Source: Babesia bigemina (lineage: Eukaryota). Taken from it: DNA of 64,000 bases. Under the pieces are notes generated by a model that made no database searches, was not told where the DNA came from, and was given only the letters and a program-made list of their open reading frames with translations. Shown here piece after piece: positions 22,167 to 64,000 of the stretch; the stretch's first letter is position 1, and every line of letters begins with the position of its first letter. Position numbers and translations under genes: made by a program. The stretch lies in NCBI RefSeq assembly GCF_000981445.1, contig NC_027216.1:2356001-2420000 (forward strand), given 5' to 3'.

Positions 22167-22370
22167 TTTTCTTAGGTGACCTCATCGATGTGCATCGTTT
22201 AAGTGAATTAATGTACGAGTTGAAATCGACCGCGCAGTGCGAGCGTTGGCCGGCTGCTGGAGCGCTACAAAGACAAAGCGCACTACCAATAGCTAGCCTA
22301 ATGACGCACCTATTCAAATCTAATTGCGCCGCCTAGGGTTCTGGACTAATCAGCCGTAGAAGTCCTTAGT

Positions 22371-30232: not shown

Positions 30233-30261
30233 CTTGCCACTGCAATTAACACGTATTGACT

Positions 30262-31138: not shown

Positions 31139-31521
31139 GGGTTGTTGGAGAGGCGATTCACCCTGATATCGTCATAGACATGGGACGTGCAGTAAAAGGG
31201 CTTTACGATGCATGGGAGGTATCAAACACACATGCCGAGCATCCGGGCGTATTAAGAACCTGAAGGCAGACACCACTCAGAGCATATCTAAACCAGGAAA
31301 TATTAAATCGATGTGACACTTTCGTCAGTAGACCTCATCGATATGGGTCGTTTACGTAAATTAATGTACGTGTTGAAATCGACGGCGCGGAGTGAAAGTT
31401 AGCCGGCTGCTCGAGCGTGCAATGTCAAAGCACACTGCTCACAACTAGCCATACGACACACCTATTCAAATCTAATTGCACAGCCGACGTGTTTGTACGC
31501 TTCATACCTAAAACCCGTAGT

Positions 31522-32301
31522 TTACGGCAGTACCTTCACGATCACTTCCTTGAAGCAAACCATCTTGGGGCCACCGAAGGGATTTCCATATGCGAAATCC
31601 AGGTAGTATTTGCCTTCCATGGCGTCTGGGTGGATAATGATGCTGCCTTTCGATACTTCTATCCTATTTTCAGAGGTGAACTCGGGCGGGATATTGACCT
31701 CTTTGCCGTCTTGAGTGGTGTCAACATGTGTTAATGCCTCGGACTGAACACGTGCCTCATCGCGGACTAAACGGCGCATGTCATCGTTTATACTTGTGAC
31801 ATCTCTGGGTGCGAAAGCAAGCGTTTCGATGCCATGTGCAGAAACTCCGACCCTTATGGTCCGCTTCATGAACATCTCTGTCAAAATATTTTTGTAGTAT
31901 TTTTGATGATGTCCTTTAACTTCCTTGTGTTCTTCCTCGTTCAAGATTCCAATGCTCATCCACTCGTTACCAGTACCTACATCGCTCAGCGCGGTAACTG
32001 CGTATACCCGACGTTCTTTGAGGTTGCTCTTGTGCACTGTGATCACCAGGGGCTTACGATCCAGACCGTCGTATGTTCCTAGATGAATATGGCGCCTATC
32101 GAACTCGCTGTAATAATATTATGTTTATTATAAATGGACTGACCCGATAAAAGAGCAGTCCGCACCTTTGGGGCAATGTGACGATGTCGTTATGTCTGGC
32201 TGCGGATTCTCGGACGCTTGATCATCCCCGAAGGCCGAACGCGCGCCGATGAAGGCTGCGAAGAAAATCAGAGCAAACGATCTGCGTACAAACGACGACA
32301 T
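31522..32301 (-). CDS. Secreted tandem-family protein, copy 5 (2 exons)
   Basis: Same signal peptide and C-terminal motif; longest variable loop. Confidence 0.85.
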
Positions 32302-33397
32302 TTTCGCAAGTAACGGAATGTGAAGTGGTGTCTGCGCGGCGCGTGTCGGCTATTGCCCTATGGATAAACCCGATGCGGCAACATCTGCGTTTGCAGTGTT
32401 GCATGAATTGTTCGCAACAATACTCTGATGCAGGCGATGCATCCAGTTTGCCGAGAACCTGTCTTTGCGTGCTTGATTCGGGGTCGATGTTGTAGCGGGC
32501 TCACGGCAGACACGGCATCGGTCGGCGGAATGCGCATATTCCACACAAACGCACACGTGTGGAACATTTCCGATATTTGTCGCGCATCATGATCAAGTGG
32601 CTTCGTCAAGGCTAAGCCACGGCTTTGGGCTGAGCGTGGCAACAGCACCTGGCCACGTTATCACCGTCGGAACGTATTGCGCACCTGTAGGCAACCACCG
32701 CCGAAATTTCTCGTAGCATGTGCGTATCTGCTTAATCAACGGCGCATGTCTGTGCGGGATTCTCGCAGCCAATGTGACGGATTTCACGCGGAAGCCAGTG
32801 TTATCACCATCCACCGCCTTTTCACCGACTAGTACATAAGACATAATCGCACGACGCTGTGCTCTGTAGTCGCCTCGCACTCGTCGCCCCTCGACTCTGC
32901 CGTGATAGACAACGCAACATCGTCGACTCCCTCCCTGATGACGAATGAGACACAACCGGGCACAGGGATATGACGCACTCCTTCATTAACATGCTCCCTA
33001 ACCAACTCGCATGGGTTGTTGGAGGGGTTATTCACCCTGAGATCGTGATAGACATGAGACGTGCAGTAAAAGGGCTTTACGATGCATGGGAGGCATCAAA
33101 CACAAATGCCGAGCATCCGGACGTATTAAGAACCTGAAGGCAGACACCACTCAGAGCATATCTAAACCAGGAAATATTAAATCGATGTGACATTTTTGCC
33201 GATCGACCTCATACATATGGATCGTTTACGTGAATTAATGCAAAAAAGATGACATCGACGGCGCGGAGTGAAAGTTAGCCGGCTGCTCGAGCGTGCAATG
33301 TCAAAGCACACTGCTCACAACTACCCATACGACACACCTATTCAAATCTAATTGCACAGCCGACGTGTTTGTACGCTTCATACCTAAAACCCGTAGT

Positions 33398-34127
33398 TTA
33401 CGGGACCACCTTCACGATCACCTCCTTGAAGCAAACCATCTTGGGGCCACCGAAGGGATTTCCATATGCGAAATCTACGTAGTATTTGCCTTCCATGGCG
33501 TCTGGGTAGATAATGATGGTTCCTTTAGAGTATTCCGGGCCTTCTGGAGGTGGGATCATGAACTCGGGATCGATGTCATCTTTATCACATCCTCGGAACA
33601 TTACGTCCTCCGGAGTCCTCCTGACATTACGCGATATAAATGCTTGTGCCCGTATCCCGTGCGCACGCTGCCCCGTCAACGTGATCCTCTTCATGAATTG
33701 CTTAGTCAAAATTTTTCTGTAGTAATTTTGATGATGCCCTTTAACCTCCTTGTGTTCTTCCTCGTTCAAAACACCAATGCTCATCCACTCGTTACCCGTG
33801 GCCCTTTCGCTGTCTGCAGTAATGGCGTAATATCTAGGCTCATTGAGGTTGCTCTTGTGCACCGTGATCACCAGCGGCTTACGATCCAGACCGTCGAATG
33901 TTCCGAGATGAAGGTGGCGCCTTTCATATTTACTGCACAGCAATATAAATACCATAGAAGCTGACTGACTTGACAAGGTCGCATTTTGAACCATCAGGGC
34001 AACGTGTCGCTGTCTTCATGCACGGGTGATCATTGTAGGATGGTTCATCATCCCCGAAGGCCGAACGCGCGCCGATGAAGGCTGCGAAGAAAATCAGAGC
34101 AAACGATCTGCGTACAAACGACGACAT
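33398..34127 (-). CDS. Secreted tandem-family protein, copy 6 (2 exons)
   Basis: Same structure; shares blocks with copy 1. Confidence 0.85.
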
Positions 34128-34833
34128 TTTCGCAAGTAACGGAATGTGAAGTGGTGTCTGCGCGGCGCGTGTCGGCTATTGCCCTATAGATAAACCCGAT
34201 GCGGCAACACCTGCATTTGCAGTGTTGCATGAATTGTTCGCAACAATACTCTGATGCAGGCGATGCATCCAGTTTGCCGAGAACCTGTCTTTGCGTGCTT
34301 GATTCAGGGTCGATGTTGTAGCGGGCTCACGGCAGACACGGCATCGGTCGGCGGAATGCGCATATTCCACACAAACGCACACGTGTGGAACATTTCCGAT
34401 ATTTGTCGCGCATCATGATCAAGTGGCTTCGTCAAGGCTAAGCCACGGCTTTGGGCTGAGCGTGGCAACAGCACCTGGCCACGTTATCACCGTCGGAACG
34501 TATTGCGCACCTGTAGGCAACCACCGCCGAAATTTCTCGTAGCATGTGCGTATCTGCTTAATCAACGGCGCATGTCTGTGCGGGATTCTCGCAGCCAATG
34601 TGACGGATTTCGCGCGGATGCGAGTGTTATCACCATCCACCGCCTTTTCACCGACTAGTACATAAGACATAGTCGCACGACGCGTTGAGCCATTTTTGGT
34701 TTGTATGTTTAAGTAGTGCTTCTCAGATGTATGCCTCGGCCTGACCCTTGTCTTGATCACCATACAAGTCTTCCGCACTAACTCAGTTCACCATTGCGAT
34801 TTACACATAGGCCCTATAGGAGTCCTGGCGATC

Positions 34834-46748: not shown

Positions 46749-49700
46749 TCAGCCATCGACATTGATGTCCAAGCACCCACCCTCCCGTAGCGTTATCCAG
46801 GTGGGATGACATAGTCTGCCAACGGGTGGCCTACAACTCAACAACCCAGCCAACCTACATCTTAACGCGGTGGCTACATCGTGTAATGAAATGGACATTA
46901 GATCACGTTGAATGGACAGTGAATTGAGTTCGTTCGGATCGGACCCGTGTAACTCTATACCGAAATTGTGGAAGTACGACACAAGCTCCCCGGTTGTCCG
47001 CGGCGTCCGCCTGGTGAGGCAGTTGAGGTAGGAGGACAGCGTCAGCAGAGGGTTATCGCCGCCGCAGCTAGGAGTGAGGATGGTGGAAAGGGTGATGCCA
47101 TTTTCCGATTTCTCAGGTAAATCATCCTTCCTGAATCCCATCCTGACGCGGCTCTTGAGGCAAGCGTTGCAAGGGTCGAAGGGGTGAGTCTCGAAGGTGG
47201 AGTCCCAGCCGTCAGTCAGGAAGGAGTGGAGGGGGGACGATGTCTTGATGTCACTGCCATATTTAGAATCCTGCCAACCACCAAGGGATTTACCTCGTTT
47301 ACACTGCGCCTTCAGGAACGCCAACTGGTGGCAGCAGGCGTAGACGTAGTCACGCAGCTGGCAGAGGAGACAGGCGGGGTCGGAGGAATAATGAAGCTGA
47401 CTATATACTGATTTGAAGTTGAAATTGGAAAACGCTTTGAAGTCATTGTTATGGGTAATCTTGTAGATAACGGTGGCCGAGTAGAGAGACGCTTCTGTCA
47501 GCTTATCGGCGACATGGGAACTGTTCAGGTTGTAAGGATCTCTGGTGACCTCGAGGGCATCTGGCATATCAAAGACATTCTTGTTAGCATTCTTTAGAAG
47601 GCACTCAACATACTCAGTAATCATCCCAATGAATCCATACGTATTCAATCCAACAAACCAGTAAAGCATTTCCCGAACGGTTCTGGGCGGGGGCAGATGG
47701 TCGGTGTCTGGGGAAGGGGAGGCAGGTGGAGGGGGTGTATCAGTTGAAGAAGTGTCAACGGACCAAGGGTTTTGGCATTCATCTGTGCTAAATGGGTTAA
47801 TTACGCGTTCATCTGCCTCCCTTGGAGAGTCACGTGGCATCCCGGGATCTTCATACCCTTCAAGTCCGATACGTTCCGGCGCAAAGTTCAGATCCAAATT
47901 AGTGTTAGGCAGGCCTGAGAAGCCTTCGTCCTCTGGAGGTTTGAACTCGTCTTTAAGGATATCGGCCGTGTTGGCGTAAGGGTCATCTAGGTCCACGTCG
48001 TTAAAAGTGCGATCGCCATGGTGAGCTAGCTCTATGGACAGGCCGATTTCGGGGTCTACTTTACGTACAGTGCGTTTCGGGAATTCTATTTGGAATCCCA
48101 TGGTTGGTTGTGGCTCAGTGAGGAACGTATCTCTAGGAATCGGCGAGGATGGCAATTCGGCGTCTGGGACGGGGGATCCGCCAAACATGGATTGTGGAAC
48201 TGGGCGTTCTATCTCCTGTAATACGGGAACATTGGTATCGGCTTTTGATGAATTTGTTAGACTGGTGCTGGAGATATTCAAAAATTTGGCCATTGATGGA
48301 TCGTCAAATGTTTGAGTGGTAATAGGGACGTGTCGAAGGATGGGAGGATGCTTATGTGCTGGCATAGCAATACCTGTTGGTTTCATACGAATAGGTTTTG
48401 TAAGCCGTGTAGGCGCCGGAAGCAATTGCATGGCTGATGTGCTAGGAATCTTGGGTGGTTTTATCGGGTGGCCCATTGTAATAGCATTAAATGCAGGAGA
48501 TTGTAGCGTCATAGACTTCGGTATGCCTTTGGACTCTGCTGTAGCATCTCCTATTGCCTGGGTGATCTGTGGCTCTGGTTCGACATGGTCCACGACAGTT
48601 GCTGTAACATCTGAAAATTTCATCCTAGCGCCATCGCTCAACTTCATCACGTCAAAAGATGATGAATCAATAGTATGCCCTTTTGGTATGTTCGTCTGAA
48701 TACCGCCTACAGATAACTCTTGAGTACCGTATATTCGTCGTTTCGTCCATTCTGCCTCCTCATCCTTCGGTTTCTGGATCCAGTCCTTTGCAACTTGAAG
48801 AAGTTTGCGCTGCTCCATTTGATCTTTGTAGTTTTGATACTGATTCAAATTTCGCCGCGCCGCTTCATATTGTTCTTGCATAATCCTTTTCCTCGGCGAG
48901 TCTTGCGACACAACTGTGCCGACGACCGGATTCAAAGTGTACAAATGGTGATCTACAAAAGCAGGTGGATACCGTATTGTATCGATTGCATTGCCTTCAA
49001 TAGCGTGCGGTAAAGATTGCGCCTTTTGTATAAATTCGTCTTGGTCCTTTCGGGCTTCGTCTAATCGTTGTTGCAACGCTTTAGCGTCTGCTTCTCTCTG
49101 CAAATTTGCAATTCCAAGACGTTTTATGGCATCGTTATACTTAGAATCTTGTATCATTCGTTCGGCTTCTTTGTCTGCATCATCTTTCAATTTTTTCTGT
49201 CCTTCATTTACATCGACCGAAACCTTCTGAAGAACTCTATTCATACGATATCTTTTTTCAGCATCACGCTTCTGTTCTTCAATAAGCTTGCTGTAATCTC
49301 TATCTAATTTGCGGTCGCTCAACCCATCCTGTAGAGCTTTTTTCCAATCTTCCACGGAATTGGTAATGAAAGGATCGGGTGGGGTCTCGCCATTTGTAAA
49401 CCACGATGGAACATAGTTGTCTTCCTCTATTGATTCGCCACCGAGATATATAGGACCGTCAACGTCTTGAAAACCTATGTCCCCATACCGCCTACCTCTC
49501 CCTTCTCCGGGTTCATAGTAACCACGTCCATTACTATTACGGCCACCGGTATTCTGACCGGAATGCCCGAGATCAGAACGGCTGGGCTGCCTTGGAATGG
49601 TGGAGGGTGTGGATGTTGGCGGATAATCACCAACGTTCTGCTTCTCTAATTTTTTGTTCCGCTGCAATCGGTGTTTGGCATCGGGATCTTGTACATTGTT

Positions 49701-52091
49701 TTCTATTTCTTCTACGTATTTCTGCTGTTGGAATTTCCATATGTCTTCTGCAGTATCTTTCAATGTTTCTTCAAGTTTCTTGGCGGCCTGCTTCCTCTTA
49801 TGCTGTTGCTTCGCCGCATAATTATCCAACTGCCTCTGGACTGTTCCTTCTTGTTTCTGTTTTTCCCATTGCTGTTCTGCAGCTATCTGTTGCATTATAA
49901 GATCAGAGCCATTATCATAATCGTCTGGGACCATTGTTCCCACTAATCCACCAAGGTCGGTTGCGCGGGTTGAAGAAAAAACATTCTGCCCATCTAGATA
50001 TGGCATGCTAATTTGCCGGTCGAGTATGCTTTTCTCATATGCTGCTTGCTTTCTACGTTCATCTTCTTCCAGTCTGCGCGTTTCTGCTGCTTTTTGCAAT
50101 CTAAGTTTTTCTTTATCTTGCTCTCTTATCTGTGCCATCTTCCTATCATATTCATTCTTGTCTTTATCCCACTTTTCGTGTATTTGCTGTTGTGCGGAGA
50201 GATCCCATTTTTTGTCATTTCTGGGACAATACTTTCCGTATCCTGACCCAAAATTATAAGATATGGCACCAGGGCACGTGGTCGAATTCCCAGAACTATC
50301 ACTGCCTGGTCGCTCACCTCCTCCAGCTCCACCGCCACCTGAACCGGAACTCGGCCCAGATGCCGTGTTACTGTCACTCGCACCTGAATGTGCTCCCTCC
50401 GCCTTCTTGCCCTGGTTCTGTGCTCCCTCCGCCTTCTTGCCCTGGTTCTGTGCTCCCTCCGCCTTCTTGCCCTGGTTCTGTGCACCCTCCGCTTTCTTGC
50501 CCTGGTTCTGTGCACCCTCCGCTTTCTTGCCCTGGTTCTGTGCACCCTCCGCCTTCTTGCCCTGGTTCTGTGCTCCCTCCGCTTTCTTACCCTGAGTTTG
50601 ATCATTGCCATCAACAGCACTCTGAGCTTTAGTGGCAGTCGGCTTCGCCGCCTCGGCCTTTGTGACCACAGATTTGGCGGCTTCGGTTTTGGTGTCGGCA
50701 GGTGGATCGTCTTCATCCTGCAACGGTTCATCTGCTTCATCCTCGGACTCTACATCAGACTCAGCTTCAGACTTTTCAGCTGGAGGCTGAGGCACGCCGT
50801 CTTTAGGCTCATCCGGTTGTCTTTCTTTATTTTTTTTTAGCTTACAGATATCACCATTCAAAATGTTCACAAGCTCATTCAATCCTTTACTCTTTTCTTT
50901 AAGCACCTTGATTACACCATCCCAATTCTCGTTCAAAATCTGAAACCTATTGCTTCCCGTTCCAGCGTCGTGACCATAAAAAGTGAATCCGTACGGAAAA
51001 AAGTTCTTGTTGAAATATTTAGTAAGTGCTGTTCTATCTTTCGTAGCCAGGGCATTACGATTAAATAATCTTTCATTCACTCTAACATTTGTCCTAAAAG
51101 AACTAATATTATCCAAATTCTTTATCACCTCACTTAAATTTGTTCTAAACCAACTAGCCATCTTCTTAGCAATGGATTGTTTACTGAGTTTGTCAAGATC
51201 CCGCGCATATCCAGTAAAAGAAAAATGCTTCTGTTTGAAAATTTTCTCAAGAGGCCCTATGAGTCCAGCACAATGTGCTTTTAATTTTTCCCACTCAATA
51301 CATTTATCTTTCGAATATAGATGGCCTTTAAAATCTTGCTCATCTCTCACCTCTGCAAATATTCTGCAAAAGTCTCGCACCAAGCGAATAGCGTTGGCTA
51401 CGTTTGGAATTTGTGTTCCAGACGTTGACAACACAGTCGTGGAATAAACATCGAGGAAAAGATTGTTAGCATTAGTATTCTTGTCCAATATTTTTTGAAG
51501 GTCACCTGCCATATCAGTACCGTTGCGATAACCCTGTCCCATGGGGTACCTATAGCCTATTTTTAGCTCACTGAGCTCAAATCCTCCAGGTATAACACCG
51601 TATACATTGTTACTCTTTGCAACTAGATATTTATCAATATCAGTAACAAGGTTCATAAGTGCATCTAACCGCATACCAATTGTAGCGTACATTGAAACCA
51701 CTCCAACTTCCTTATCCGCCCACCCCCCTCCGCCAAGCGCAGCAAAGTTTCGGTCCACATGGTATCGCAAAAAGTAGAACGCGGATAAAATTTGTGGAAT
51801 ACATGCCAAGAGGGCATTAAGGGCGGGTTTGGTTTTTTTTTCGCCAGTATAACTGCCACGTGGAGAAGTGCATAACTTCTTATGAAAGACTGACAGGTTA
51901 TTAAGAAATTGGGACAACGCGATTTCAATTTGCGTTTGATCAACACCTTCATATTTATCTTTAAGGAGTCTATACAGTCTATTTGCCACCTGACTTCTAA
52001 CAACGCTACGTTTACGATCATTCAGCCACTCCAAGAATTCCAAGCACTCTTTGAGAGTCTTGAAATCAGGAACGCTACCCTTAGCCGCCAT
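46749..52091 (-). CDS. Giant ves-related variant antigen ('ribosome-binding protein 1-like' Babesia family), probably 3'-truncated
   Basis: FKTLKECLEFLEWL N-terminus, GGGGW, IPGGF, PPPRTVREMLYW, LLCQLRDYVYAC, SRVRMGF, CLTRRTPRTTGELVS; NQGKKAEGAQ repeats. Confidence 0.85.
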   Translation of the reverse strand: MAAKGSVPDFKTLKECLEFLEWLNDRKRSVVRSQVANRLYRLLKDKYEGVDQTQIEIALSQFLNNLSVFHKKLCTSPRGSYTGEKKTKPALNALLACIPQILSAFYFLRYHVDRNFAALGGGGWADKEVGVVSMYATIGMRLDALMNLVTDIDKYLVAKSNNVYGVIPGGFELSELKIGYRYPMGQGYRNGTDMAGDLQKILDKNTNANNLFLDVYSTTVLSTSGTQIPNVANAIRLVRDFCRIFAEVRDEQDFKGHLYSKDKCIEWEKLKAHCAGLIGPLEKIFKQKHFSFTGYARDLDKLSKQSIAKKMASWFRTNLSEVIKNLDNISSFRTNVRVNERLFNRNALATKDRTALTKYFNKNFFPYGFTFYGHDAGTGSNRFQILNENWDGVIKVLKEKSKGLNELVNILNGDICKLKKNKERQPDEPKDGVPQPPAEKSEAESDVESEDEADEPLQDEDDPPADTKTEAAKSVVTKAEAAKPTATKAQSAVDGNDQTQGKKAEGAQNQGKKAEGAQNQGKKAEGAQNQGKKAEGAQNQGKKAEGAQNQGKKAEGAQNQGKKAEGAHSGASDSNTASGPSSGSGGGGAGGGERPGSDSSGNSTTCPGAISYNFGSGYGKYCPRNDKKWDLSAQQQIHEKWDKDKNEYDRKMAQIREQDKEKLRLQKAAETRRLEEDERRKQAAYEKSILDRQISMPYLDGQNVFSSTRATDLGGLVGTMVPDDYDNGSDLIMQQIAAEQQWEKQKQEGTVQRQLDNYAAKQQHKRKQAAKKLEETLKDTAEDIWKFQQQKYVEEIENNVQDPDAKHRLQRNKKLEKQNVGDYPPTSTPSTIPRQPSRSDLGHSGQNTGGRNSNGRGYYEPGEGRGRRYGDIGFQDVDGPIYLGGESIEEDNYVPSWFTNGETPPDPFITNSVEDWKKALQDGLSDRKLDRDYSKLIEEQKRDAEKRYRMNRVLQKVSVDVNEGQKKLKDDADKEAERMIQDSKYNDAIKRLGIANLQREADAKALQQRLDEARKDQDEFIQKAQSLPHAIEGNAIDTIRYPPAFVDHHLYTLNPVVGTVVSQDSPRKRIMQEQYEAARRNLNQYQNYKDQMEQRKLLQVAKDWIQKPKDEEAEWTKRRIYGTQELSVGGIQTNIPKGHTIDSSSFDVMKLSDGARMKFSDVTATVVDHVEPEPQITQAIGDATAESKGIPKSMTLQSPAFNAITMGHPIKPPKIPSTSAMQLLPAPTRLTKPIRMKPTGIAMPAHKHPPILRHVPITTQTFDDPSMAKFLNISSTSLTNSSKADTNVPVLQEIERPVPQSMFGGSPVPDAELPSSPIPRDTFLTEPQPTMGFQIEFPKRTVRKVDPEIGLSIELAHHGDRTFNDVDLDDPYANTADILKDEFKPPEDEGFSGLPNTNLDLNFAPERIGLEGYEDPGMPRDSPREADERVINPFSTDECQNPWSVDTSSTDTPPPPASPSPDTDHLPPPRTVREMLYWFVGLNTYGFIGMITEYVECLLKNANKNVFDMPDALEVTRDPYNLNSSHVADKLTEASLYSATVIYKITHNNDFKAFSNFNFKSVYSQLHYSSDPACLLCQLRDYVYACCHQLAFLKAQCKRGKSLGGWQDSKYGSDIKTSSPLHSFLTDGWDSTFETHPFDPCNACLKSRVRMGFRKDDLPEKSENGITLSTILTPSCGGDNPLLTLSSYLNCLTRRTPRTTGELVSYFHNFGIELHGSDPNELNSLSIQRDLMSISLHDVATALRCRLAGLLSCRPPVGRLCHPTWITLREGGCLDINVDG
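50391..50595 (-). repeat. 30-bp coding tandem repeat, about 7 copies, (NQGKKAEGAQ)n
   Basis: tgc(t/a)ccctccgc(c/t)ttcttgccctggttctg repeated head to tail. Confidence 0.97.
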
Positions 52092-52510
52092 CCTATCCAC
52101 TTCCAGTCACCCACTAACCCACCCTTACAAAACTTCACCACTAGCCTCCAGGACTATGTGAACTGGGAAACACTACAGTGATCACACCTCTAAGGTGACG
52201 CCGCTTAATACAGCATGGCAGACAACTAAGTGTGCTCGGTGAAAGGGCTACGAAGTAAGACGCTGAATAACACCAATACGCATCATACTGTAACAATGAC
52301 GCACCTAAACCATATTGCAAAATCCATGAACCATCACAAGAATCCTATAGACATACCACTCACCAGAGGAGGGAAGGCGACAAGGCAGGGCAGCCATGCT
52401 GGAGTGAGGAGGTGGAGCGTGGTATCGAGGTGGTATTAACAGTAGGGATTGTGGGTGTAAATGGAGCAGTAAAAACAGACATTTGATTAGACCTTAGGTG
52501 AGGCGGTATG
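52092..52510 (-). promoter_or_regulatory. Conserved upstream/5'UTR block of the giant variant gene; inverted homolog of 57932-58312
   Basis: Reverse-complement similarity, e.g. GTGTTATTCAGCGTCTTACTTC, ACACTTAGTTGTCTGCCATGCTGT, CCCTCCTC(A/T)GGTGAGTGGT. Confidence 0.75.
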
Positions 52511-54347: not shown

Positions 54348-57197
54348 TTACTTGGCGTAGTAGTTCTCGATCTGGATGGTGGATAAAATGACCCCCTTGA
54401 TGGTGACGCAGCGACACTCCAACGGCGGCGTCTGGCGCAGCGTTTCGCCGGGTCCAATGAGTTCACTGTCGAACCGCAGTATAACAAAGTGATTACTCCG
54501 AGATGCTACAAACGACTTGCTGACATAGCTTACGTTCTTCACTTCACCGTTCACCCAGATCTGGTCGAAGCAGTTGGGTGGGTCCAGGACGTACGGTGCT
54601 GGGCAGTAGAACGCCGCTTCTTTAGCATTCTGAATGTCGATCTTGCAACCGATTTGTCGTCCGGAAGCGTCGTACAGTTGGGGTGTCTCAGGTTTAAACA
54701 GCTCATCCGATTCGTAAGTAACTCCGCAGCCTTGCATGTACGGGTCAGTGGTTTCGACGTGTATCTCAACGACGTGCCACGTGTATCTTACCGATGATCG
54801 TACGATATTGCCAGTCGACGGCGAGGATACTTCACTATTGATAGTGATAAAATCTGACGGTTTAGGATATTTACCGCAGACAAAAGTCATGGGCACAAAA
54901 TCTATGTGAATCGGATTCTTAGATATAATAATGCCGCCTCTATTTGATTTGAAGCCCAATTCATGGACGGCAGGCGTTGACATCATTGTATGGACTTCGA
55001 AGCCACCTGGGGTAGTAGCAAGTGAATCGCTGTGCGACGTGTGAACTAGCGCAGACCTATCTGCCATATAATTTGCAGTATAATGATGATACTCATGCAG
55101 TCGTGGCAGCCACATTGGTCGTATCCTCAAGTTATTTGAATCGTACTGCGCCTCACGTTCAATATTACAGCTTATGATCAACGAGGTGCCTACATGCAGT
55201 GTTATGGGCACCCGTGGGATATACTGTATCATAAGCAATTCGGGTGGGGTAGTTCGGCCACCTGGCAATCCTAGTTCACTCAAAGGCACCAGCATATGGG
55301 TAACTAAAATTTTGGGTGCATCTTTGTGACGTACGGTGTACGTTTTACGGTCGCTTAGACTCTGATCGAATACTATTCTAGATTTTTCGTATCCTCGTTT
55401 ATCGACGCAGACGCAAGCATAGCTGAAGGGTCTATTATTTCGAAAGTCAAGTCTTAATAACTGAAATCCAAGGATACGCTTCATCATCACTGTCTTCAAA
55501 GATCCAGCAAGTGGCGTGATGCGATTGGATTTAAGATCGTATCCCGTGGAGTCACAATTATCTGGCATGAGCACTTCGTCCGGTAGGCAGTGTATACCAG
55601 CCCACAAAATGCTCGATTGTTTGTTGTATGTGCACTCGTATGTTTGTCCAATAGTGTTACTCCACCGTTTAGTTGAGCAATACATTTTGCTGATTTCCGA
55701 ATCGAATACTTTATGTGACGCACGGTCGCAACCAACCGTCTTGTAGTGATGTGTAAATGCGAATGACACATTCACTACAGCGCGAATATTATCAAATACG
55801 TAGTTGTTGATCGCCTTCAATGTCCAATGATAAAAAAACAAATTCAATCCCCTTATTAACGTAAGCGGCTTGTTTTCACGGTATTTCAGTTTTATCTCTC
55901 CTCGTGAAATATTGGAAGCATCCCACTCAAGGGCATCGCCAGCGATTACCTTATGGTAGATTACGTCTCTGTAAATATCATCATAAATTGTTGTAAGTTG
56001 TCTCAGCGTCATCAGGTTTTTCGGCCGGAATTCAGTTTTGAATAAATAATTAGGAGGAGTGCGAGAGCGTATAGATACTGGTGAATCTTTTTGAGAGGGG
56101 TCGGTGTCGCCATTTTCTATAGGGAATCTTATTGTCAATGTGCTGCCTGGGTGTAACACTACAGAGCACCAAGGGCCACGTATTGGGTGTATACGGTGGC
56201 GAAATATTTTGCTTGCGATATCGCAGACGTAGTCAGTTTTAGACCGTAGCTCCATCCTGGCCTTCACGCGGGATGTTTCTGGATCGACGCACTTGCATTC
56301 CCCATTGAATGGCGGGAATGCTAATTTCTGAAAATATTGCGCCACCACCCAAGGTCGATGATGATCAAAACTCCAATAGAAATGTGGTCTATGGGGAATC
56401 GTGATTTTACCGTCCGTGTCCAAGAGGGACTTCATGCAATCCGCGGGTTCAATTCGGCCTTCGCAAACAAATCCGATGCGAGCATTCGACATAGGGTCTA
56501 CTACACATGATCGCGTACCAGTAACGGGATCCACGGTAACTTCATAATCCGCATTAAACAGTGGCGAAAGTCGGCTGCCACAACCTTGAAGAGGCAGATG
56601 CGTCTCGCCTCTGTACAAGAAGAATATACCCAGACCCTTTCCAATTACCCCCAATTCATGAGCCAATGGTGTTACAGAGTTCCAAAGTAGTTGCCTCATT
56701 TGTGTGACACTCTCTAGTCGGTCCAGGTGACGCTGCAATATATCTGACAAGAACAAATCTCGGGGCCCACAGATGAATATCAGACGACGCTCGTTGATGA
56801 CGTAGAATTCATTCCTTGGTATGTCGAAGTGCAGGCGACTTTGCGACGGATTGGATTGCACTGTAACAAATTCAACAGGCCTATCAGTGACGACAACTTC
56901 CGCAATAGCGACGGAACGAATTTTGCCATTGCCACCAACGTATGCGTTATGATAACCGTTCTCAATCTTTGTAGGTTGTGGATGCCAGACGTATTCGGTG
57001 TTGTTGACTACGCGTGGACATATGACAGGTGGGAATTCAGAGAATTCGAAATATGTGTGGCAGCTAACGATGGCGTTGTTGCTCAGCAAGTCGTGTGGAT
57101 CTCCGAAGTCACAGATGAACGTCTCAATGGGCCGGAAAGAATACAGCATTGTTGCGCATAACGCCAACATAAATTTCATTACGATGGGACGTCCCAT
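54348..57197 (-). CDS. 6-Cys (s48/45-domain) family secreted protein, 949 aa
   Basis: Signal peptide; repeated modules QGCG...C..D......F.C......P..C...ECKC/ACVC/ECRC typical of s48/45 domains; no hydrophobic GPI tail (ends IENYYAK). Confidence 0.75.
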   Translation of the reverse strand: MGRPIVMKFMLALCATMLYSFRPIETFICDFGDPHDLLSNNAIVSCHTYFEFSEFPPVICPRVVNNTEYVWHPQPTKIENGYHNAYVGGNGKIRSVAIAEVVVTDRPVEFVTVQSNPSQSRLHFDIPRNEFYVINERRLIFICGPRDLFLSDILQRHLDRLESVTQMRQLLWNSVTPLAHELGVIGKGLGIFFLYRGETHLPLQGCGSRLSPLFNADYEVTVDPVTGTRSCVVDPMSNARIGFVCEGRIEPADCMKSLLDTDGKITIPHRPHFYWSFDHHRPWVVAQYFQKLAFPPFNGECKCVDPETSRVKARMELRSKTDYVCDIASKIFRHRIHPIRGPWCSVVLHPGSTLTIRFPIENGDTDPSQKDSPVSIRSRTPPNYLFKTEFRPKNLMTLRQLTTIYDDIYRDVIYHKVIAGDALEWDASNISRGEIKLKYRENKPLTLIRGLNLFFYHWTLKAINNYVFDNIRAVVNVSFAFTHHYKTVGCDRASHKVFDSEISKMYCSTKRWSNTIGQTYECTYNKQSSILWAGIHCLPDEVLMPDNCDSTGYDLKSNRITPLAGSLKTVMMKRILGFQLLRLDFRNNRPFSYACVCVDKRGYEKSRIVFDQSLSDRKTYTVRHKDAPKILVTHMLVPLSELGLPGGRTTPPELLMIQYIPRVPITLHVGTSLIISCNIEREAQYDSNNLRIRPMWLPRLHEYHHYTANYMADRSALVHTSHSDSLATTPGGFEVHTMMSTPAVHELGFKSNRGGIIISKNPIHIDFVPMTFVCGKYPKPSDFITINSEVSSPSTGNIVRSSVRYTWHVVEIHVETTDPYMQGCGVTYESDELFKPETPQLYDASGRQIGCKIDIQNAKEAAFYCPAPYVLDPPNCFDQIWVNGEVKNVSYVSKSFVASRSNHFVILRFDSELIGPGETLRQTPPLECRCVTIKGVILSTIQIENYYAK

Positions 57198-57931
57198 TCT
57201 GATTAACGGTGTGGCGTGGCACAGTCAAAGGTCTATCGTGTATCTATAGCTTCTTTGGTAAACCAAAGCATTTCAATGGTATGAAAAAATTGCCTACGTT
57301 ATCCCAATATATGAGAAACACATCAATATTTTATTGTGAGCGCAAGTGGTTGTCCAAGTATCGCGGCAATTGTGTGTCTGGTTGCGTAGGAATTTTCTCC
57401 AGCGTCGCCAGCTGCGATTTTCACCAGAGCAGGCCATAATATGCGGTACGAAATTGTATGTTACGTGTTGTAATTGTTATAAACCCATCGTATTTGCCAT
57501 AATACCCGCATTAACATTATTGCATCAATGCACGGATGAAACGTGCCGCGTTTGATTCTCGAAAGCGCGCCATACCCATTGTTGAGATTGCGATTAGCAA
57601 CCGCGACAATTTCGTGTCGGCTGAGACATACATTATAAACATCTCTCAAGAAGTGGTGAAGAACGTGATTGGGAGGCTCTGCGCTAGCAGATAAGCTTCT
57701 AGCTGGTCTCAAGCGATGACTTGCGACGGCGTTGTGTGCACATACCATACTACGCATAGACACCAGTTTGGCAAGCGTAAACACGCGTGAATACGGACAT
57801 ACCTATCGCCGCATTATGAAAATCTCCCGTTTAATGAATTGGTTACACGACAAACCAGTTCTAGGATGAATATTCGCAAGGTCCGAGGGACAGGCTAGAC
57901 ACCTAGCACACCCAGCCCACCTAACAGCACA

Positions 57932-58312
57932 CACCTACCACCTCACCTAACATCTAACCAACTGCCTCCCCGACCTTTCCATCACCACCCATCCTCCCAC
58001 TTAAGCATGGCTGCCTCGGCTTGGCGCCTACCCTCCTCAGGTGAGTGGTGTGTCTATAAGAATCCTGTGATGGGTAATGGATTTTGGAAAATGGTTTAGG
58101 TGTGGCATGGTTTTAGTGTGATGCGTATTGGTGTTATTCAGCGTCTTACTTCATAGCCTTTCCACCTACTACACTTAGTTGTCTGCCATGCTGTGTTAAG
58201 CGGTGTCACCTTGGAGGTGTGATGACTGTAGTGCTTCCCGGTTCACATGGTCCTGGAGGCTGGCAGTGGTGTTTTGTGAGAGTGGATTAGTGGGTGATTG
58301 GAAGTAGACAGG
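57932..58312 (+). promoter_or_regulatory. Conserved upstream/5'UTR block; inverted homolog of 52092-52510
   Basis: See partner feature. Confidence 0.75.
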
Positions 58313-61300
58313 ATGGTGGATAAAGGTAATATACCTGAGTTCAGGACTCTTAAGGAGTGCTTGGAATTCTTGGAGTGGTTGCATCATAATAGAGGCGCAC
58401 AAGGCCAGCTGGCCAATAGACTGATGCGGCTGCTTAATGGCAAATACAATACTGTTGATCAACAGCAAATTGAACCCGCACTGTCACAGTTTTTAACTAA
58501 TGTATCCAAGTTTCATACGAAATTGTGCAAAAATCCACAACGGTCGTATACCGGCGAGCGAAAAGCTAAAAATACCTTAAACGCTCTCCTTCAGTGCATC
58601 CCTAAGGTTCTTGCAGCTTTGTATTTTTTGCGGTACAATGTGGACGATGGATTCACAAGAGTGGGCGGTGGGGATTGGGCGGGTGAAACGGTTGGGATGA
58701 TCGAACTGTACGCTGCGCGTGGTCCAGAGTTTGTTAGACGGATGATAGCGAGTGCCGGAAAAATTGATAGATACCTCATTGCGCAAGATGACGTTGAGTA
58801 CGGTGTTATACCTGGTGGATTCGGGGCAGGTGAGTTGCAACCTGGTTATAAGAATGGCTATTCCCCAGCCTCTGCTATGGCAGGGGACATTATAAAGATT
58901 CTGAATAAAGAAACTAATAAAAACAATCTGCTTCTCGATGTTTATTCAACTACAGTGTTATCCACGACCGGGTCCGACACTGCAAACATCGCAAATGCCC
59001 TTCGCTTGGTTCAAGATTTCTGTAGAATTTTCGGAGAAGTACGAGATGAGCAAGATTTTAGGAATCATTTATATTCGAGAGACAAATGCATAAATTTAGA
59101 TGAATTAAAAAGGCAATGCAAAAAACTTATAGTACCGCTTGAAAAAATATTCACCAAGGACCGTTTTTCCTTCACGGGATATGCTAGAGAATATCAATAC
59201 CTTACAAAGGAGAACATTGCGAAAAAAATGGCAAGTTGGTTTAAAACACATCTGAATGCAGTGAATGAGAAATTGAAGAGAATTGATACACAATCCGGTG
59301 TAATCAAAAAACCACGCAAGGACAACCTTGCCGCCTATTTCAACAAACATTTCATTCCTTACGGATTCACATTCTATGGCTACGATTTCGGAAAAGGAAG
59401 CAGTCAGCAAAAGATTTTGACGGATAATTGGGTTAATGTAATTAATGAGCTAAAGAGAGAAGGTGACGGCCTGGCAAAGTTGAAAACGATTTTGGATGGT
59501 GAGGGTTGTTTAATGGAAGAGGAAGATGATAATGAAGTTGAGGACGAAGAGGCTAAGGAAGAACTAGAAATTCCGGATGAAGATTTGGAAGATGTAGAGT
59601 CCGAAGATCATACGCCTTTCACCAAACCCGATGCCGCCAAGCCTGTGGTCACCAAAGCCGAAGCGGCGAAGCCGACTGCTACCAAGACGGAGGCAATTAA
59701 AACTGAGGCTGCGAAGCCTGTTGTAAGTCAATCCGAAGTAACTCCAAACCAGGGCAAGAAATCTGAGGGAGCACAGAACCAAGGCAAGAAAGCGGAGGGG
59801 GCACAGAACCAGGGCAAGAAAGCGGAGGGGGCACAGAACCAGGGCAAGAAAGCGGAGGGGGCACAGAACCAGGGCAAGAAAGTGGACAGCCCTCAAAGCC
59901 AAAATAATGGTCAAAGTGAAGAAAAGCCTGGGAGTTCACAAGTCGCACAGGCGGCACAAACTAATACTTCAAGTGATTCAAGGGGAGGCTCTGAGTCACC
60001 TGGTGCCCATGATCCCAGTAGTGGTCAGGGCCCGGGTGACCAGGCGGCTACCTCCGGCGCTAGTCAACAGAGTGGTCAAAAGGCTCAGCCAGGTTCAGGT
60101 GACAGTAAGACGGCATCCTCTACTGCAGGATCTGGTCCAGGTGGCGGTGGAAAAGGTGATCATAGTCGTGACCCCGTAACATGTGATGGTGGTATAAGTG
60201 CTACTCTGAATGGCCAAAACTATTGTCAGCCAAAATCTCATTGGGGCAATCGTACACCATTCGTACCAACTGAAATCACCGAAAAGATGTGGGATGATTT
60301 TAAAAATCGACATCATCCTACGACAATGCAAAGTGTTCCTTCTATTCATACGCCTAGTTCCTCCCAACCTTTACATTACGTTCACGGTGACCGTGTTGTC
60401 AGCCAACGTCAACCCTTTGAAACACGGAAAAGGGTTAGGGGGCAGATTGGTCAAGGAGAATTACCTAAAGTTACCGGATTGGCTATCGATGATCCGTTTT
60501 TTGAGCAGCAGAGGATAATAGAAAATGAATACAAAACCGTGCTTAAGGACAACGCATATAAGTGGCAAACAGATCGAATGAAATTCTATGATGAACTGCA
60601 AGAACGACTGACTAGAGAGGCTGAAACCGAAAAGGAAATGAAAGAAGAACAACGCAAGGTGGAGCGTAGACTAGAAATGGACGCTAAATATAAAACTGCC
60701 ATTGAACGGCTCACAAAGCAAAATCTACAGAGAGAAGCAGACGCCAAGGCGTTGGAAAAACGATTTGAAGAAGCGACCAGAAAAACGGACGAAAGACGTA
60801 GACAGGAAGAAGCAGAGGAACGTGAAAAACAAAAAGAAGAGGAACATAGGACACGATTGCAACAACAAGCCTATTATGATCACGCTAACTCGTTGAACGG
60901 TAAGCCAGCTCCCGATCCCACTGATTTTACTTTAATGCAGAATGAGGCCATTAATAGGAGTAGAGCGTACAAAGAAGCAGAGAAAATAGAGAGAGAAAAG
61001 AATCTGGAACTTAAAAAGGCACTGTATGCGGCTCAAAAAATTAATTTGCCGCAGCATATACCAAAACCAAGAAGCATACAACCTCCCCTCGTGAATTTGG
61101 ATGGGCATGCTTCTGTGTTCGTGAATCAAATGGAAGGTATTCCACTGAGTAGTTCTTCAAAAGGAAATGACAACGTTTCCGGACTTCGGCAAATTACGTT
61201 TTCCACGTCATCTGTGCCAACAACCGCAACCCTGTCCGGGCAGACTCCCCATAATCCAACAGAATCGCCAGCAACTGCCACACTAGACGACTCAATCATA

Positions 61301-63142
61301 CCTGCATTTACGGACGTCACTGCTATTAATATAAAAACACCTGCTGATCCAAATAAATACTACTACGGAGAGTTTACAGGGAACGTTGTGAAAGACCACT
61401 CAAACGTCACACGGCGAAAGGAGCTGGCAGCTAATGCGTTTAAAGTTCAACGAAAGTTATTTGAACAGCGCGAGCCCCAACTGCTGGCAGTAGACAACCA
61501 AATAAAGCAATCAGTGCAGAAAAAGGAAGAGGATGTCGAAAACTGGCAAGAAGCGCGGAGAAGTGACTTTCTGAAAGGTATTCAAAGAGATATTCAAAGT
61601 CGGGTCACGAGTGCGGATGGTGATGCTGTGTTCATGTCAGGGAATCCTATTACATACCAAAAACCTGTTCTCGTGATAGGACAAGTTGTGAAAAATAATC
61701 CTGACACAAACGGCAAACGAAAACAGGAGGCATATAATATTCTTCGTTCGCAAAATTTTGATGTCACAGGCGATAAAATTCTGATTCCCAATATTCCACC
61801 TAAGCCCCTTCCGCTACTTCCCTCCATTGGCATTCCGGCTGGCAAACCATTAAAAGAGGCCAAGCAAATACCGCCCTTACCGCCGCTGCCGTACCCACTC
61901 TCTGTTCCTGCCATTGCTTCTGAGCCTGAAGGCATTGATCTGACAAAACAGAAACGTACCACGGAACGTACGCCCGTGATACTCCCGGAGGTTATCCCTC
62001 CTCTCACTGGGCAGCTTGATGTTCTACCCATGGAAAATTCAACCGACTTTTCGGGTAGTACAATCGTACATACACCAGCTCATATACCAACGGTCTACAT
62101 TCCACAAGACAGTGCTTTCGAGACCTTTGTGCCGTCGGAACCAACAGGCGATCCCATTGCTGATCCCAAGACAAAGCCTCCGCGGAAATCCCTCACTCCG
62201 GTAGAAATCGAAGCTCATCCAGGGGTCATGATTGATGAACCGATATGTCAGCTGTATTCCCCAGAGTTGGTTACAAAAAAGGTTCCTAGCACTGATCACA
62301 GTATAGCTCCGCCCCGAACTGTGCGTGAGATGCTGTGCTGGCTCAGCGATTTGCCGCATGCCCTGGGATATGCCAATTTAATCAACTACATCTTAAATTT
62401 GTTTGAGGGGTCTGAATCAATAGAAGCCATCCCAGAATCTATTTCATCGGACGATGTCACCGAAGCCTTATCCCAATCCTGTAGCCACGCCAGTTCTGTG
62501 CTGGCAGGTATCGAAGGGCCTGTGCCCATTGACCTTAACAAGTTGCACTATGAACGCTACGGCGCTCCACTGATGTACTACTCCGAAGACCCCTACACGC
62601 TTCTATGCCAATTGCTGAGCTATGTCTACGCCACTTATCATCAGCTATCTTTCCTGCGCACCCAGTGCCGGAGGGACTCCGACCAGGGTGGGTGGCGTGA
62701 ATGTCAGTACGGTAAAAATGTAAAGGCATCGGAATATTGGCTCTGCACCAAAGATCCATTAGACCCCATGAAATTACAAAGTCATGGTTGCGACCCTTCC
62801 CCCTTGCAAGGTTTTCTCACTGACCAGTCCGATATCTCCACTTACTGGTATCAGAGGAATGATGTATGCCAGAAGAGCCGCATTAAAATGGGTTTTCTTC
62901 AGAAACATTTTCGAGATAAGCATAAGCATGGGTTCTATACCTACAACTTGCTGACTGGGGCGTGTTATAATAATGTAGATCCACTTGAGAAACTTTGCCG
63001 ATATCTTGTATGCCTCACCAGAAGGACGCCGCGTACCACCGGGGAGCTTGTGTCCTTCTCCCATCATATCGGCAATGAGTTGCAAGGTATGTGTCAGGGT
63101 TGTCTTTACTTGGCACCGCCATCACCAAGTCGTATGACCTAA
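58313..63142 (+). CDS. Giant ves-related variant antigen paralog with NQGKKAEGAQ repeats, probably 3' frameshifted/truncated
   Basis: FRTLKECLEFLEWL, GGGDW, IPGGF, APPRTVREMLCW, LLCQLLSYVYA, SRIKMGF, CLTRRTPRTTGELVS. Confidence 0.85.
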   Translation: MVDKGNIPEFRTLKECLEFLEWLHHNRGAQGQLANRLMRLLNGKYNTVDQQQIEPALSQFLTNVSKFHTKLCKNPQRSYTGERKAKNTLNALLQCIPKVLAALYFLRYNVDDGFTRVGGGDWAGETVGMIELYAARGPEFVRRMIASAGKIDRYLIAQDDVEYGVIPGGFGAGELQPGYKNGYSPASAMAGDIIKILNKETNKNNLLLDVYSTTVLSTTGSDTANIANALRLVQDFCRIFGEVRDEQDFRNHLYSRDKCINLDELKRQCKKLIVPLEKIFTKDRFSFTGYAREYQYLTKENIAKKMASWFKTHLNAVNEKLKRIDTQSGVIKKPRKDNLAAYFNKHFIPYGFTFYGYDFGKGSSQQKILTDNWVNVINELKREGDGLAKLKTILDGEGCLMEEEDDNEVEDEEAKEELEIPDEDLEDVESEDHTPFTKPDAAKPVVTKAEAAKPTATKTEAIKTEAAKPVVSQSEVTPNQGKKSEGAQNQGKKAEGAQNQGKKAEGAQNQGKKAEGAQNQGKKVDSPQSQNNGQSEEKPGSSQVAQAAQTNTSSDSRGGSESPGAHDPSSGQGPGDQAATSGASQQSGQKAQPGSGDSKTASSTAGSGPGGGGKGDHSRDPVTCDGGISATLNGQNYCQPKSHWGNRTPFVPTEITEKMWDDFKNRHHPTTMQSVPSIHTPSSSQPLHYVHGDRVVSQRQPFETRKRVRGQIGQGELPKVTGLAIDDPFFEQQRIIENEYKTVLKDNAYKWQTDRMKFYDELQERLTREAETEKEMKEEQRKVERRLEMDAKYKTAIERLTKQNLQREADAKALEKRFEEATRKTDERRRQEEAEEREKQKEEEHRTRLQQQAYYDHANSLNGKPAPDPTDFTLMQNEAINRSRAYKEAEKIEREKNLELKKALYAAQKINLPQHIPKPRSIQPPLVNLDGHASVFVNQMEGIPLSSSSKGNDNVSGLRQITFSTSSVPTTATLSGQTPHNPTESPATATLDDSIIPAFTDVTAINIKTPADPNKYYYGEFTGNVVKDHSNVTRRKELAANAFKVQRKLFEQREPQLLAVDNQIKQSVQKKEEDVENWQEARRSDFLKGIQRDIQSRVTSADGDAVFMSGNPITYQKPVLVIGQVVKNNPDTNGKRKQEAYNILRSQNFDVTGDKILIPNIPPKPLPLLPSIGIPAGKPLKEAKQIPPLPPLPYPLSVPAIASEPEGIDLTKQKRTTERTPVILPEVIPPLTGQLDVLPMENSTDFSGSTIVHTPAHIPTVYIPQDSAFETFVPSEPTGDPIADPKTKPPRKSLTPVEIEAHPGVMIDEPICQLYSPELVTKKVPSTDHSIAPPRTVREMLCWLSDLPHALGYANLINYILNLFEGSESIEAIPESISSDDVTEALSQSCSHASSVLAGIEGPVPIDLNKLHYERYGAPLMYYSEDPYTLLCQLLSYVYATYHQLSFLRTQCRRDSDQGGWRECQYGKNVKASEYWLCTKDPLDPMKLQSHGCDPSPLQGFLTDQSDISTYWYQRNDVCQKSRIKMGFLQKHFRDKHKHGFYTYNLLTGACYNNVDPLEKLCRYLVCLTRRTPRTTGELVSFSHHIGNELQGMCQGCLYLAPPSPSRMT
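59747..59887 (+). repeat. 30-bp coding tandem repeat, about 4.5 copies, (NQGKKAEGAQ)n
   Basis: aaccagggcaagaaagcggagggggcacag repeated; variants NQGKKSEGAQ and NQGKKVD. Confidence 0.97.
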
Positions 63143-63823: not shown

Positions 63824-64000
63824 ATGGTATACAATTCGTTGACTGAAGCCCCGCATACTTTCAGGGAGGGTATTGACTGGTTGATTGCTCTGAAGGGCAA
63901 CGATGCTGAGAAGAACTTGGCTGCCATGGGCGCCGCACTTCACAAGTTCTTGGCAGACAAGCCTGTTGGCAAGATGGAGCTGCCAGCTCTCGAAGAAGTC
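63824..64000 (+). CDS. ves1: Variant erythrocyte surface antigen-1 family protein, 5' part only
   Basis: MVYNSLTEAPHTFREGIDWLIALKGNDAEKNL...; the SLT.AP....E.IDW motif is the VESA1 N-terminal signature. Confidence 0.82.
   Translation, partial: MVYNSLTEAPHTFREGIDWLIALKGNDAEKNLAAMGAALHKFLADKPVGKMELPALEEV

What the first reader, a model, noticed from the sequence alone, without database searches (positions are those of the whole stretch)
50391..50595. Mammalian RRBP1/p180 ribosome-binding decapeptide repeat inside a parasite variant antigen
Seen: TQGKKAEGAQ followed by (NQGKKAEGAQ)n, a GC-rich 30-bp repeat in an otherwise AT-richer gene. Known: NQGKKAEGAQ is the tandem decapeptide of mammalian RRBP1 (p180 ER ribosome receptor). 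As I recall, Babesia genes like this are auto-annotated 'ribosome-binding protein 1' because of it, though the rest of the protein is ves-like. Inference: host-to-parasite capture of a repeat exon, or exact molecular mimicry. It could act as a self-epitope decoy or engage host ribosomes/RNA, for example in reticulocytes.
Basis: partly seen in the sequence, partly recalled or inferred. Interest (0 to 1): 0.85.

Follow-up and report, generated by a model that had tools for sequence, protein, structure and literature searches.

The report
Parasite antigen wears host repeat peptides
A cattle blood parasite's variant surface-antigen gene carries, in a predicted floppy linker, near-exact copies of two of the host's own repeated peptides (from the ribosome receptor RRBP1 and from collagen VI); the RRBP1 peptide recurs in surface-type proteins of mycoplasmas, a trypanosome and a monkey malaria parasite, which likely points to a shared way of passing as 'self' to the immune system.

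Summary
The repeat is real: seven in-frame decapeptide units at 50388-50597 (minus strand), and five more in a paralogue at 59747-59896. Both lie in Babesia ves1a-like genes. The unit is the RRBP1 decapeptide (56 residues identical in a row to a mammalian RRBP1).

It is one tile of a mosaic. Just upstream lies a second host peptide, the K/A/P/T repeat of cattle collagen VI alpha-3 (21/22 and 29/32 residues here; 33 in a row in a B. bigemina paralogue). B. ovata paralogues carry titin PPAK units.

The RRBP1 array also sits in mycoplasma P97/P110 adhesins, Trypanosoma vivax GPI-type proteins and a Plasmodium coatneyi KIR stalk; the collagen peptide recurs in mycoplasma adhesins. Babesia and mycoplasma share no other 8-mer.

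Codons vary while the peptides stay fixed, so selection acts on the peptide. DNA capture is not shown: collagen silent sites are saturated and the RRBP1 signal is borderline.

Best reading: self-peptide camouflage or tolerance (0.5), untested. Ribosome binding is unlikely. The mycoplasma-RRBP1 link is in print; I did not find the Babesia mosaic or the cross-kingdom recurrence in the paper library.

The parts
46749..52091 (-). ves1a-like gene 1 (1780 aa from the first ATG): predicted helical N-domain, disordered linker with host-like peptides, long variable middle, conserved Cys-rich region; lacks the last ~250 aa with the transmembrane end
50628..50693 (-). Collagen VI alpha-3-like peptide (residues 472-493), 21 of 22 residues identical to the cattle protein, longest exact run 14
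50388..50597 (-). RRBP1/p180 decapeptide array, 7 units (the finding)
58313..63142 (+). ves1a-like gene 2 (1609 aa from the first ATG), divergently oriented paralogue, 55% identical in the N-domain, also without the transmembrane end
59621..59716 (+). Collagen VI alpha-3-like peptide (residues 442-473), 29 of 32 residues identical to the cattle protein, longest exact run 21
59747..59896 (+). Second RRBP1 decapeptide array, 5 units

Best explanation
The repeat is one tile of a mosaic of host peptides (RRBP1 and collagen VI alpha-3 here, titin in paralogues) in the predicted disordered linker of a Babesia ves1a-like variant antigen, and it likely serves as self-camouflage: the host would be tolerant to these abundant repeated self-peptides, so the shared part of the antigen would draw little T-cell help or antibody. 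Shown: peptide identity, position behind the N-domain, fixed peptide with varying codons, recurrence in unrelated pathogens. Inferred: surface display (by homology to B. bovis VESA1; the two copies in the window lack the membrane anchor and may be silent donors or secreted forms), tolerance as the selective force, and independent gain in each lineage. Origin is open: capture of host RNA/DNA long ago about 0.5, stepwise convergence under immune selection about 0.3, pathogen-to-pathogen transfer about 0.15.
For: (1) Three different host proteins are matched at one position of one gene family. RRBP1. COL6A3: the only PDB hit of 177,635 sequences, E 2.7e-11, 33 identical residues in a B. bigemina paralogue. 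Titin: the 5 hits among 1.84 billion representatives are all titin PEVK-type pieces, 2 of 5 named titin, and Pfam PPAK passes its cut-off in 3 B. ovata proteins. Their host functions are unrelated; what they share is being long self repeats. (2) Selection on the peptide: interior units of the window arrays show 4 synonymous and 0 replacement codon variants (binomial P 0.0016); mycoplasma arrays have pS 0.60-0.83 and pN/pS 0-0.13; the collagen core differs at 6 of 42 nt between the window's two genes, all silent. (3) Recurrence in stalk or linker positions of unrelated surface proteins: mycoplasma P97/P110, 8 T. vivax proteins with predicted signal peptide, Cys-rich head, repeat and GPI-type tail, and a P. 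coatneyi KIR. (4) Hints of host matching: the macaque parasite's KIR has its longest run (19 aa) with macaque RRBP1 among 10 mammalian proteins, next best 18; mycoplasma collagen pieces match different ruminant variants (28, 23 and 19 aa); 128 of 140 Babesia and 712 of 763 mycoplasma interior units equal a fetched mammalian unit. (5) Two B. bigemina genes with this label are more than 120-fold up in blood stages (PMC9806345 passages). (6) Precedent: KIR stretches of up to 36 aa match macaque CD99 (PMC4413850 passage).
Against: No immunological test on Babesia was found or run. The one dataset found (T. vivax peptide array with cattle sera, PMC9529106 S1 Table) does not discriminate: the 5 repeat-bearing 15-mers have log fold-change -0.19 to -1.08, none significant, but the 6 other peptides of that protein are not significant either. 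Pigs immunised with a P97 C-terminal fragment holding R1 and R2 made anti-P97 antibody, epitopes unmapped (PMC3932138 passages), and a reference title lists P97R1 as a diagnostic antigen. R1/R2 regions have reported binding activities, a competing reason for conservation. In 3 Babesia MFS transporters the array follows what I infer to be helix 4, a loop that faces the cytoplasm in canonical MFS topology, which does not fit antibody camouflage. RRBP1 and titin are intracellular, so B-cell tolerance to them may be weak (general knowledge). The 1-residue margin for macaque is slight, and the cattle collagen variant may simply be ancestral among ruminants. Both window copies lack the anchor.
Confidence: 0.5

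Rival explanations
1. Ligand mimicry for adhesion or host modulation: the Lys-rich repeats would bind host partners (heparan sulfate, fibronectin, plasminogen, chaperones), and identity with host peptides is kept because the partner recognises them.
For: Mycoplasma R1/R2 regions are reported to bind heparin, fibronectin, cilia and GRP78, and R2 is the same decapeptide in another phase (PMC9542919 passages). Collagen VI is a matrix protein. B. bovis VESA1 mediates cytoadhesion (PMC5660447 passage).
Against: Charge-based binding does not need 33-42 exact residues. RRBP1 and titin repeats are cytosolic and have no extracellular partner known to me. Paralogues carry collagen, titin, both or neither before the array. 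PMC9542919 calls the function of R2 unclear, and the region needed for GRP78 binding was R1-2.
Confidence: 0.25
2. Biophysical spacer: the repeats are soluble, flexible stalks that lift a head domain; they were picked up or converged upon for that property, and immunity is secondary.
For: The linker is predicted unstructured (pLDDT below 50 from model residue 434 on). Unit number varies from 2 to 18 among Babesia paralogues.
Against: A spacer should tolerate substitutions. Replacement changes are purged, and those that occur fall mostly in the set common in mammals (mycoplasma 6 of 7, P 0.002; Babesia 5 of 8, P 0.04).
Confidence: 0.13
3. The repeat binds host ribosomes or RNA as in RRBP1.
For: [quoted passage not shown] A few Babesia MFS transporters may show it to a cytoplasm (topology inferred).
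Against: p180 has 54 units, the window arrays 5 and 7. In T. vivax, KIR, mycoplasma and ves1a the array is in predicted extracellular parts. The idea cannot explain the collagen and titin tiles.
Confidence: 0.05
4. Assembly artefact or host contamination.
For: No contig of run X1 bridges repeat and flank.
Against: The array is in frame in two genes of the window and in 30 further Babesia proteins of two species. Its codons differ from the host-like contigs. Run X1 holds both a unique flank piece (230 nt, 1 difference) and repeat contigs with 0-1 differences at similar low depth.
Confidence: 0.02

Closest known systems
Plasmodium knowlesi KIR mimicry of macaque CD99 (Pain et al. 2008, seen only through PMC4413850 and PMC3050887 passages)
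   Same: Exact host stretch of 20-40 aa inside a member of a variant surface family; the P. coatneyi KIR found here has the RRBP1 units just before its predicted membrane helix.
   Different: Here the copied peptides are tandem repeats of RRBP1, COL6A3 and titin, several are joined in one linker, and the same ones recur in unrelated pathogens.
Mycoplasma hyopneumoniae P97/Mhp271 repeats R1 and R2
   Same: R2 is the same decapeptide in another phase; its match to pig KIAA1398/RRBP1, and an R2-like gene in M. suis, are noted in PMC3091866.
   Different: Treated there as an adhesin motif of unclear meaning. No shared sequence with Babesia outside the two host motifs. Whether R1 itself matches pig COL6A3 was not tested; ruminant-type mycoplasma adhesins do carry ruminant COL6A3 pieces.
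Mammalian RRBP1/p180 ribosome receptor
   Same: Decapeptide unit, including the T-starting first unit (35 identical residues with P0142).
   Different: No membrane anchor, KP-rich region (PF05104) or coiled coil in the parasite protein; 5-7 units against 54.
Babesia bigemina / B. ovata ves1a family
   Same: N-domain 24-51% and C-region up to 76% identical to named members; low-complexity region after about nt 1250-1500 as described in PMC4066756.
   Different: The papers read describe only a low-complexity region; both window copies lack the terminal transmembrane domain.

Membership tests
ves1a (B. bigemina/B. ovata VESA1a) | Homology along N-domain and C-region to ves1a cluster members | tested here: met
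   BLASTP to 21 named 'ribosome-binding protein' or BBBOND proteins, E down to 1e-137; genes with that label sit in cluster 2 = ves1a in the supplement of PMC5660447 (6 rows seen). The exact accessions were not matched one to one (no hits for 6 locus tags).
ves1a (B. bigemina/B. ovata VESA1a) | Conserved C-terminal domain with one transmembrane helix | tested here: not met
   tblastn of the last 330 aa of 4 full-length paralogues matches only their first 68-78 aa (plus one weak 38-aa piece) and nothing downstream in the window. 15 of 21 paralogues have the full end. The window copies are therefore filed as ves1a-like truncated copies, not as full members.
ves1a (B. bigemina/B. ovata VESA1a) | Low-complexity region after the N-domain | tested here: met
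ves1a (B. bigemina/B. ovata VESA1a) | Display on the infected red-cell surface, antigenic variation | not testable with these tools
   Shown for B. bovis VESA1 only; the fields are blank for B. bigemina in the table of PMC4413850.
RRBP1/p180 family | N-terminal membrane anchor with KP-rich region PF05104 and C-terminal coiled coil | tested here: not met
   No Pfam family for P0001; PF05104 found in mammalian P0005. The database label is a misannotation.
RRBP1/p180 family | Tandem decapeptide | tested here: met
Host-to-parasite horizontal transfer | Silent sites closer to host DNA than the shared peptide explains | tested here: inconclusive
   Collagen piece: 22 differences in 98 nt against about 22 expected at saturation. 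RRBP1: host-like contigs differ at about 11% against 20% under uniform codons; best piece 2 of 43 nt; P(8 or more of 10 codons) 0.003-0.05 before allowing for picking the best contig.
Host-to-parasite horizontal transfer | Flanking host sequence carried along | tested here: not met
   Sequence on both sides of the tiles does not continue into RRBP1 or COL6A3.
Mycoplasma-to-Babesia transfer of P97 R1+R2 | Shared non-host sequence | tested here: not met
   All 124 shared 8-mers belong to the two host motifs: 103 occur in fetched mammalian proteins, 21 are variants of the same motifs.
Immune-evasion self mimicry (KIR-CD99 type) | Exact host peptide in a variant surface family, under selection | tested here: met
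Immune-evasion self mimicry (KIR-CD99 type) | Reduced host response to the mimic | tested here: inconclusive
   Only the T. vivax array, which does not discriminate.

The most novel reading that the evidence does not exclude
Unrelated pathogens of mammals (Babesia, Plasmodium, Trypanosoma, respiratory and blood mycoplasmas) have each drawn on the same small library of host tandem repeats (RRBP1, collagen VI alpha-3, titin) to build the exposed stalks of surface proteins, keep them matched to their own host species, and use them as high-dose self epitopes that silence or actively dampen T-cell help. These few repeats would mark the deepest holes in the mammalian immune repertoire.
Probability: 0.35. 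Interest if true: 0.92.

Novelty: new variant of a known kind. Interest (0 to 1): 0.86.

Why it matters
Linear self-mimicry by parasites is often claimed on short, weak matches. Here the matches run 20-56 residues, are under purifying selection, come as a mosaic of three host proteins and recur across bacteria and two protozoan phyla, so the camouflage idea can be tested directly with peptide arrays and T-cell assays on existing cattle samples. It explains why many Babesia ves1a genes are mislabelled 'ribosome-binding protein' (168 label occurrences in the B. ovata gene table). It also bears on vaccines and diagnostics: constructs that include P97 R2 or these linkers contain host sequence, which may blunt the response or risk self-reactivity.

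Tried and rejected
No whole genome is held for the window, so no genome-wide count of tiles was made.

DNA pattern scans for two tandem units found 0 in viral contigs, 0 in metagenome contigs and 5 stretches in 2 mycoplasma species in genome contigs. That scan has blind spots: a P97-type array turned up in another held genome, G250. The collagen pattern found 0 in metagenomes, so no named mammalian DNA was obtained for codon comparison. The single-unit pattern in 401 genomes of the class gave arrays only in G001 and G250, and 11 single hits against 13 control hits.

Sequencing runs: no RNA holder listed; one small-share holder. No contig bridges repeat and flank.

GC contrast as proof of foreign origin was rejected. 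The Pfam Pentapeptide_2 hits, and the beta-helix that a review proposes from modelling, were not reproduced in my model of the 7-unit array. Foldseek gave no match for the N-domain (none at E 0.001 or better); the wider structural search was not run. Gly-X-Y pieces downstream in B. ovata give only generic collagen hits (best E 0.003) for one protein and none for another. The whole linker against PDB gave nothing useful. The atlas did not answer, so the acidic stretch before the collagen tile is unassigned. Pain et al. 2008 is not held. Earlier findings of the scan: none.
Full report
OBSERVATION. The minus-strand ORF 46749-52106 encodes seven decapeptide units at residues 504-573 (nt 50597-50388), in frame. 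A paralogue on the plus strand (58298-63142) holds five more at 59747-59896. The unit pattern occurs 12 times against 0.00 in 100 shuffles. The repeat is GC-richer than its gene (0.61 vs 0.46), but its GC3 (0.71) lies within the range of four other window ORFs (0.49-0.80).

THE GENE. Both ORFs match B. bigemina and B. ovata proteins labelled 'ribosome-binding protein' in the N-domain and the C-region. In the supplement of PMC5660447 such genes sit in cluster 2, the ves1a cluster (6 rows seen; text). The only link to RRBP1 is the repeat. AlphaFold on the first 615 residues (17-row alignment) gives a helical domain of about 415 residues and pLDDT below 50 over the linker; the fold has no PDB match. 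Both window copies lack the last ~250 residues with the transmembrane helix, which 15 of 21 paralogues have.

WHO ELSE HAS THE DECAPEPTIDE. The search of 981-3124 aa proteins gave 175 hits, 120 listed: 7 mammalian RRBP1, 14 Babesia-type (one is the window's own), 99 mycoplasma adhesins; 55 were not shown. The search of shorter proteins scored only the top 7993 candidates and gave 62 hits: 13 RRBP1 or RRBP1-like, 17 Babesia, 22 mycoplasma, 8 T. vivax, 1 P. coatneyi KIR and 1 weak IF-2. In T. vivax the array lies between a Cys-rich head and a GPI-type tail; in the KIR just before the predicted membrane helix (my reading of the sequences). Among prokaryotic genomes, arrays were found only in mycoplasma-type genomes. 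M. hyopneumoniae R2 is the same unit in another phase, and PMC3091866 notes its match to pig KIAA1398 and a similar gene in M. suis. I recall that Wilton et al. 1998 noted the likeness of R2 to the dog protein; I did not see that paper.

A SECOND AND THIRD HOST PEPTIDE. Laying host-sized runs on gene 2 showed a 1929-nt contig on the stretch before the array, with nine listed differences, all at third codon positions. A protein search with that stretch gave 15 hits among 66 candidates: 2 ruminant collagens, 11 Babesia proteins (one the window's own) and 2 mycoplasma P110/LppT-type proteins. The collagen is COL6A3: architecture VWA-repeat-FN3-Kunitz and top match to PDB 9han_C, although UniRef labels the Bos entry COL28A1. 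The window stretch hits 9han_C alone among 177,635 sequences. Exact runs with the Bos protein are 14 and 21 residues in the window, 33 in B. bigemina P0199 and 42 in mycoplasma P0200. B. ovata paralogues carry titin PPAK units at the same place. Of 41 Babesia proteins fetched, 37 carry the RRBP1, 19 the collagen and 15 the titin motif; they were found through these motifs, so this is not a family frequency.

SELECTION. Interior units of the two window arrays show 4 synonymous and 0 replacement variants (8 units; P 0.0016); with the end units included, 6 against 7 (P 0.03). Mycoplasma arrays are far more scrambled at silent sites, with the peptide nearly fixed. The collagen core differs at 6 of 42 nt between the window's genes, all silent. 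Units within an array are not independent, so the P values are indicative.

ORIGIN. Babesia and mycoplasma sequences share 124 8-mers, all within the two host motifs, which argues against transfer of a gene piece between them. Runs X2 and X3 show no long or close cover of the parasite flanks, yet hold short contigs on the arrays; I infer that these are host RRBP1. The listed pieces differ at 48 of 419 nt (array 1, 8 pieces, gapped chance pieces left out) and 77 of 690 nt (array 2, 14 pieces, partly the same contigs), about 11%, against 20% for random codons. Pieces under 80% were cut off, and 4 and 32 pieces were not shown. The best piece has 2 differences in 43 nt; 8 or more matches in 10 codons has P 0.003 under the gene's codon use and 0.05 under that of other window genes. 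The collagen contig differs at 22 of 98 nt; if it encodes the Bos peptide (29 of 32 residues shared), about 22 are expected at saturation (arithmetic). So DNA capture is not shown. Runs of 33-42 exact residues are hard to get without a template, which keeps capture slightly ahead of stepwise convergence.

FUNCTION. [quoted passage not shown] The tiles sit in the part of the antigen that variants share. I therefore favour tolerance-based camouflage (0.5) over ligand mimicry (0.25), spacer (0.13), ribosome binding (0.05) and artefact (0.02). The evidence on immunogenicity is thin and mixed: the T. vivax repeat peptides were not reactive in infected cattle, but neither were the other peptides of that protein, and pigs can respond to a P97 fragment holding R1 and R2. 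Host matching is hinted at but not established.

LITERATURE SEEN. Ten library searches. The motif strings occur only in p180 papers, one Mhp271 paper and unrelated texts; no listing joins Babesia with titin, collagen VI or RRBP1 mimicry. Passages only: PMC9806345, PMC4066756, PMC5660447, PMC9542919, PMC3050887, PMC3091866, PMC12491259, PMC4413850, PMC11732093, PMC3932138, PMC9529106. Abstract only: PMC2120505. One reference line: PMC7968261. Supplements were searched for PMC5660447, PMC4066756 (file 1 not searchable; it may bear on ves1a membership) and PMC9529106. Most subscription papers are outside the library, so absence from print is not proven.

VERDICT. A real and striking case of linear self-mimicry, a new variant of the KIR-CD99 kind: a mosaic of host repeats in ves1a linkers, with the same repeats reused by unrelated pathogens. 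Mechanism inferred, testable now. Interest 0.86.

Noticed in passing
P0170, P0179, P0183 (B. ovata, B. bigemina): The RRBP1 decapeptide (3-4 units) is also inserted in a loop of MFS-type transporters, a second, unrelated placement within Babesia; the loop is inferred to face a cytoplasm.
   Followed up: partly
P0148, P0150, P0154, P0156, P0162, P0167, P0184, P0185 (T. vivax): A family with predicted signal peptide, Cys-rich head without Pfam family, RRBP1-repeat stalk and GPI-type tail; one member is TvY486_0030430, listed as single-copy in PMC9529106.
   Followed up: partly
L026-L033, L036; P0200, P0207: Mycoplasma P110/LppT-type adhesins carry ruminant COL6A3 repeat pieces, up to 42 identical residues; 9 of the 12 genomes hit among 401 look real. 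This suggests that P97 R1 may be the pig counterpart (not tested).
   Followed up: partly
P0077, P0152, P0168, P0202 and others (B. ovata): Titin PPAK units stand before the array and run on from the end of one unit into the next, as in the spliced host protein rather than in genomic exons.
   Followed up: partly
P0135 526-575 and other B. ovata linkers: Short Gly-X-Y collagen-like runs follow the array; no exact host source found.
   Followed up: partly
window 50694-50850 (-): Acidic stretch before the collagen tile, partly conserved in a paralogue (P0209); might be another host tile.
   Followed up: no
window 46749-47000 and 63050-63142: Both ves1a-like ORFs break off shortly after the same conserved motif, as do at least two named paralogues (P0119, P0121): possibly a recurrent breakpoint.
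   Followed up: partly
window 54348-57224 (-): 6-Cys (s48/45) gene between the two divergent ves1a-like genes (Pfam E 1e-12).
   Followed up: no
window 22350-34800: ORFs of 122-129 and 186-205 aa recur about every 1.85 kb on the minus strand: a tandem gene array.
   Followed up: no
window 63824-64000 (+): Start of another gene whose N-terminus I recall as ves1b/ves2-like.
   Followed up: no
model m95834315c5c6: The ves1a N-domain (about 415 aa) is predicted as a confident helical fold with no Foldseek match in PDB.
   Followed up: partly
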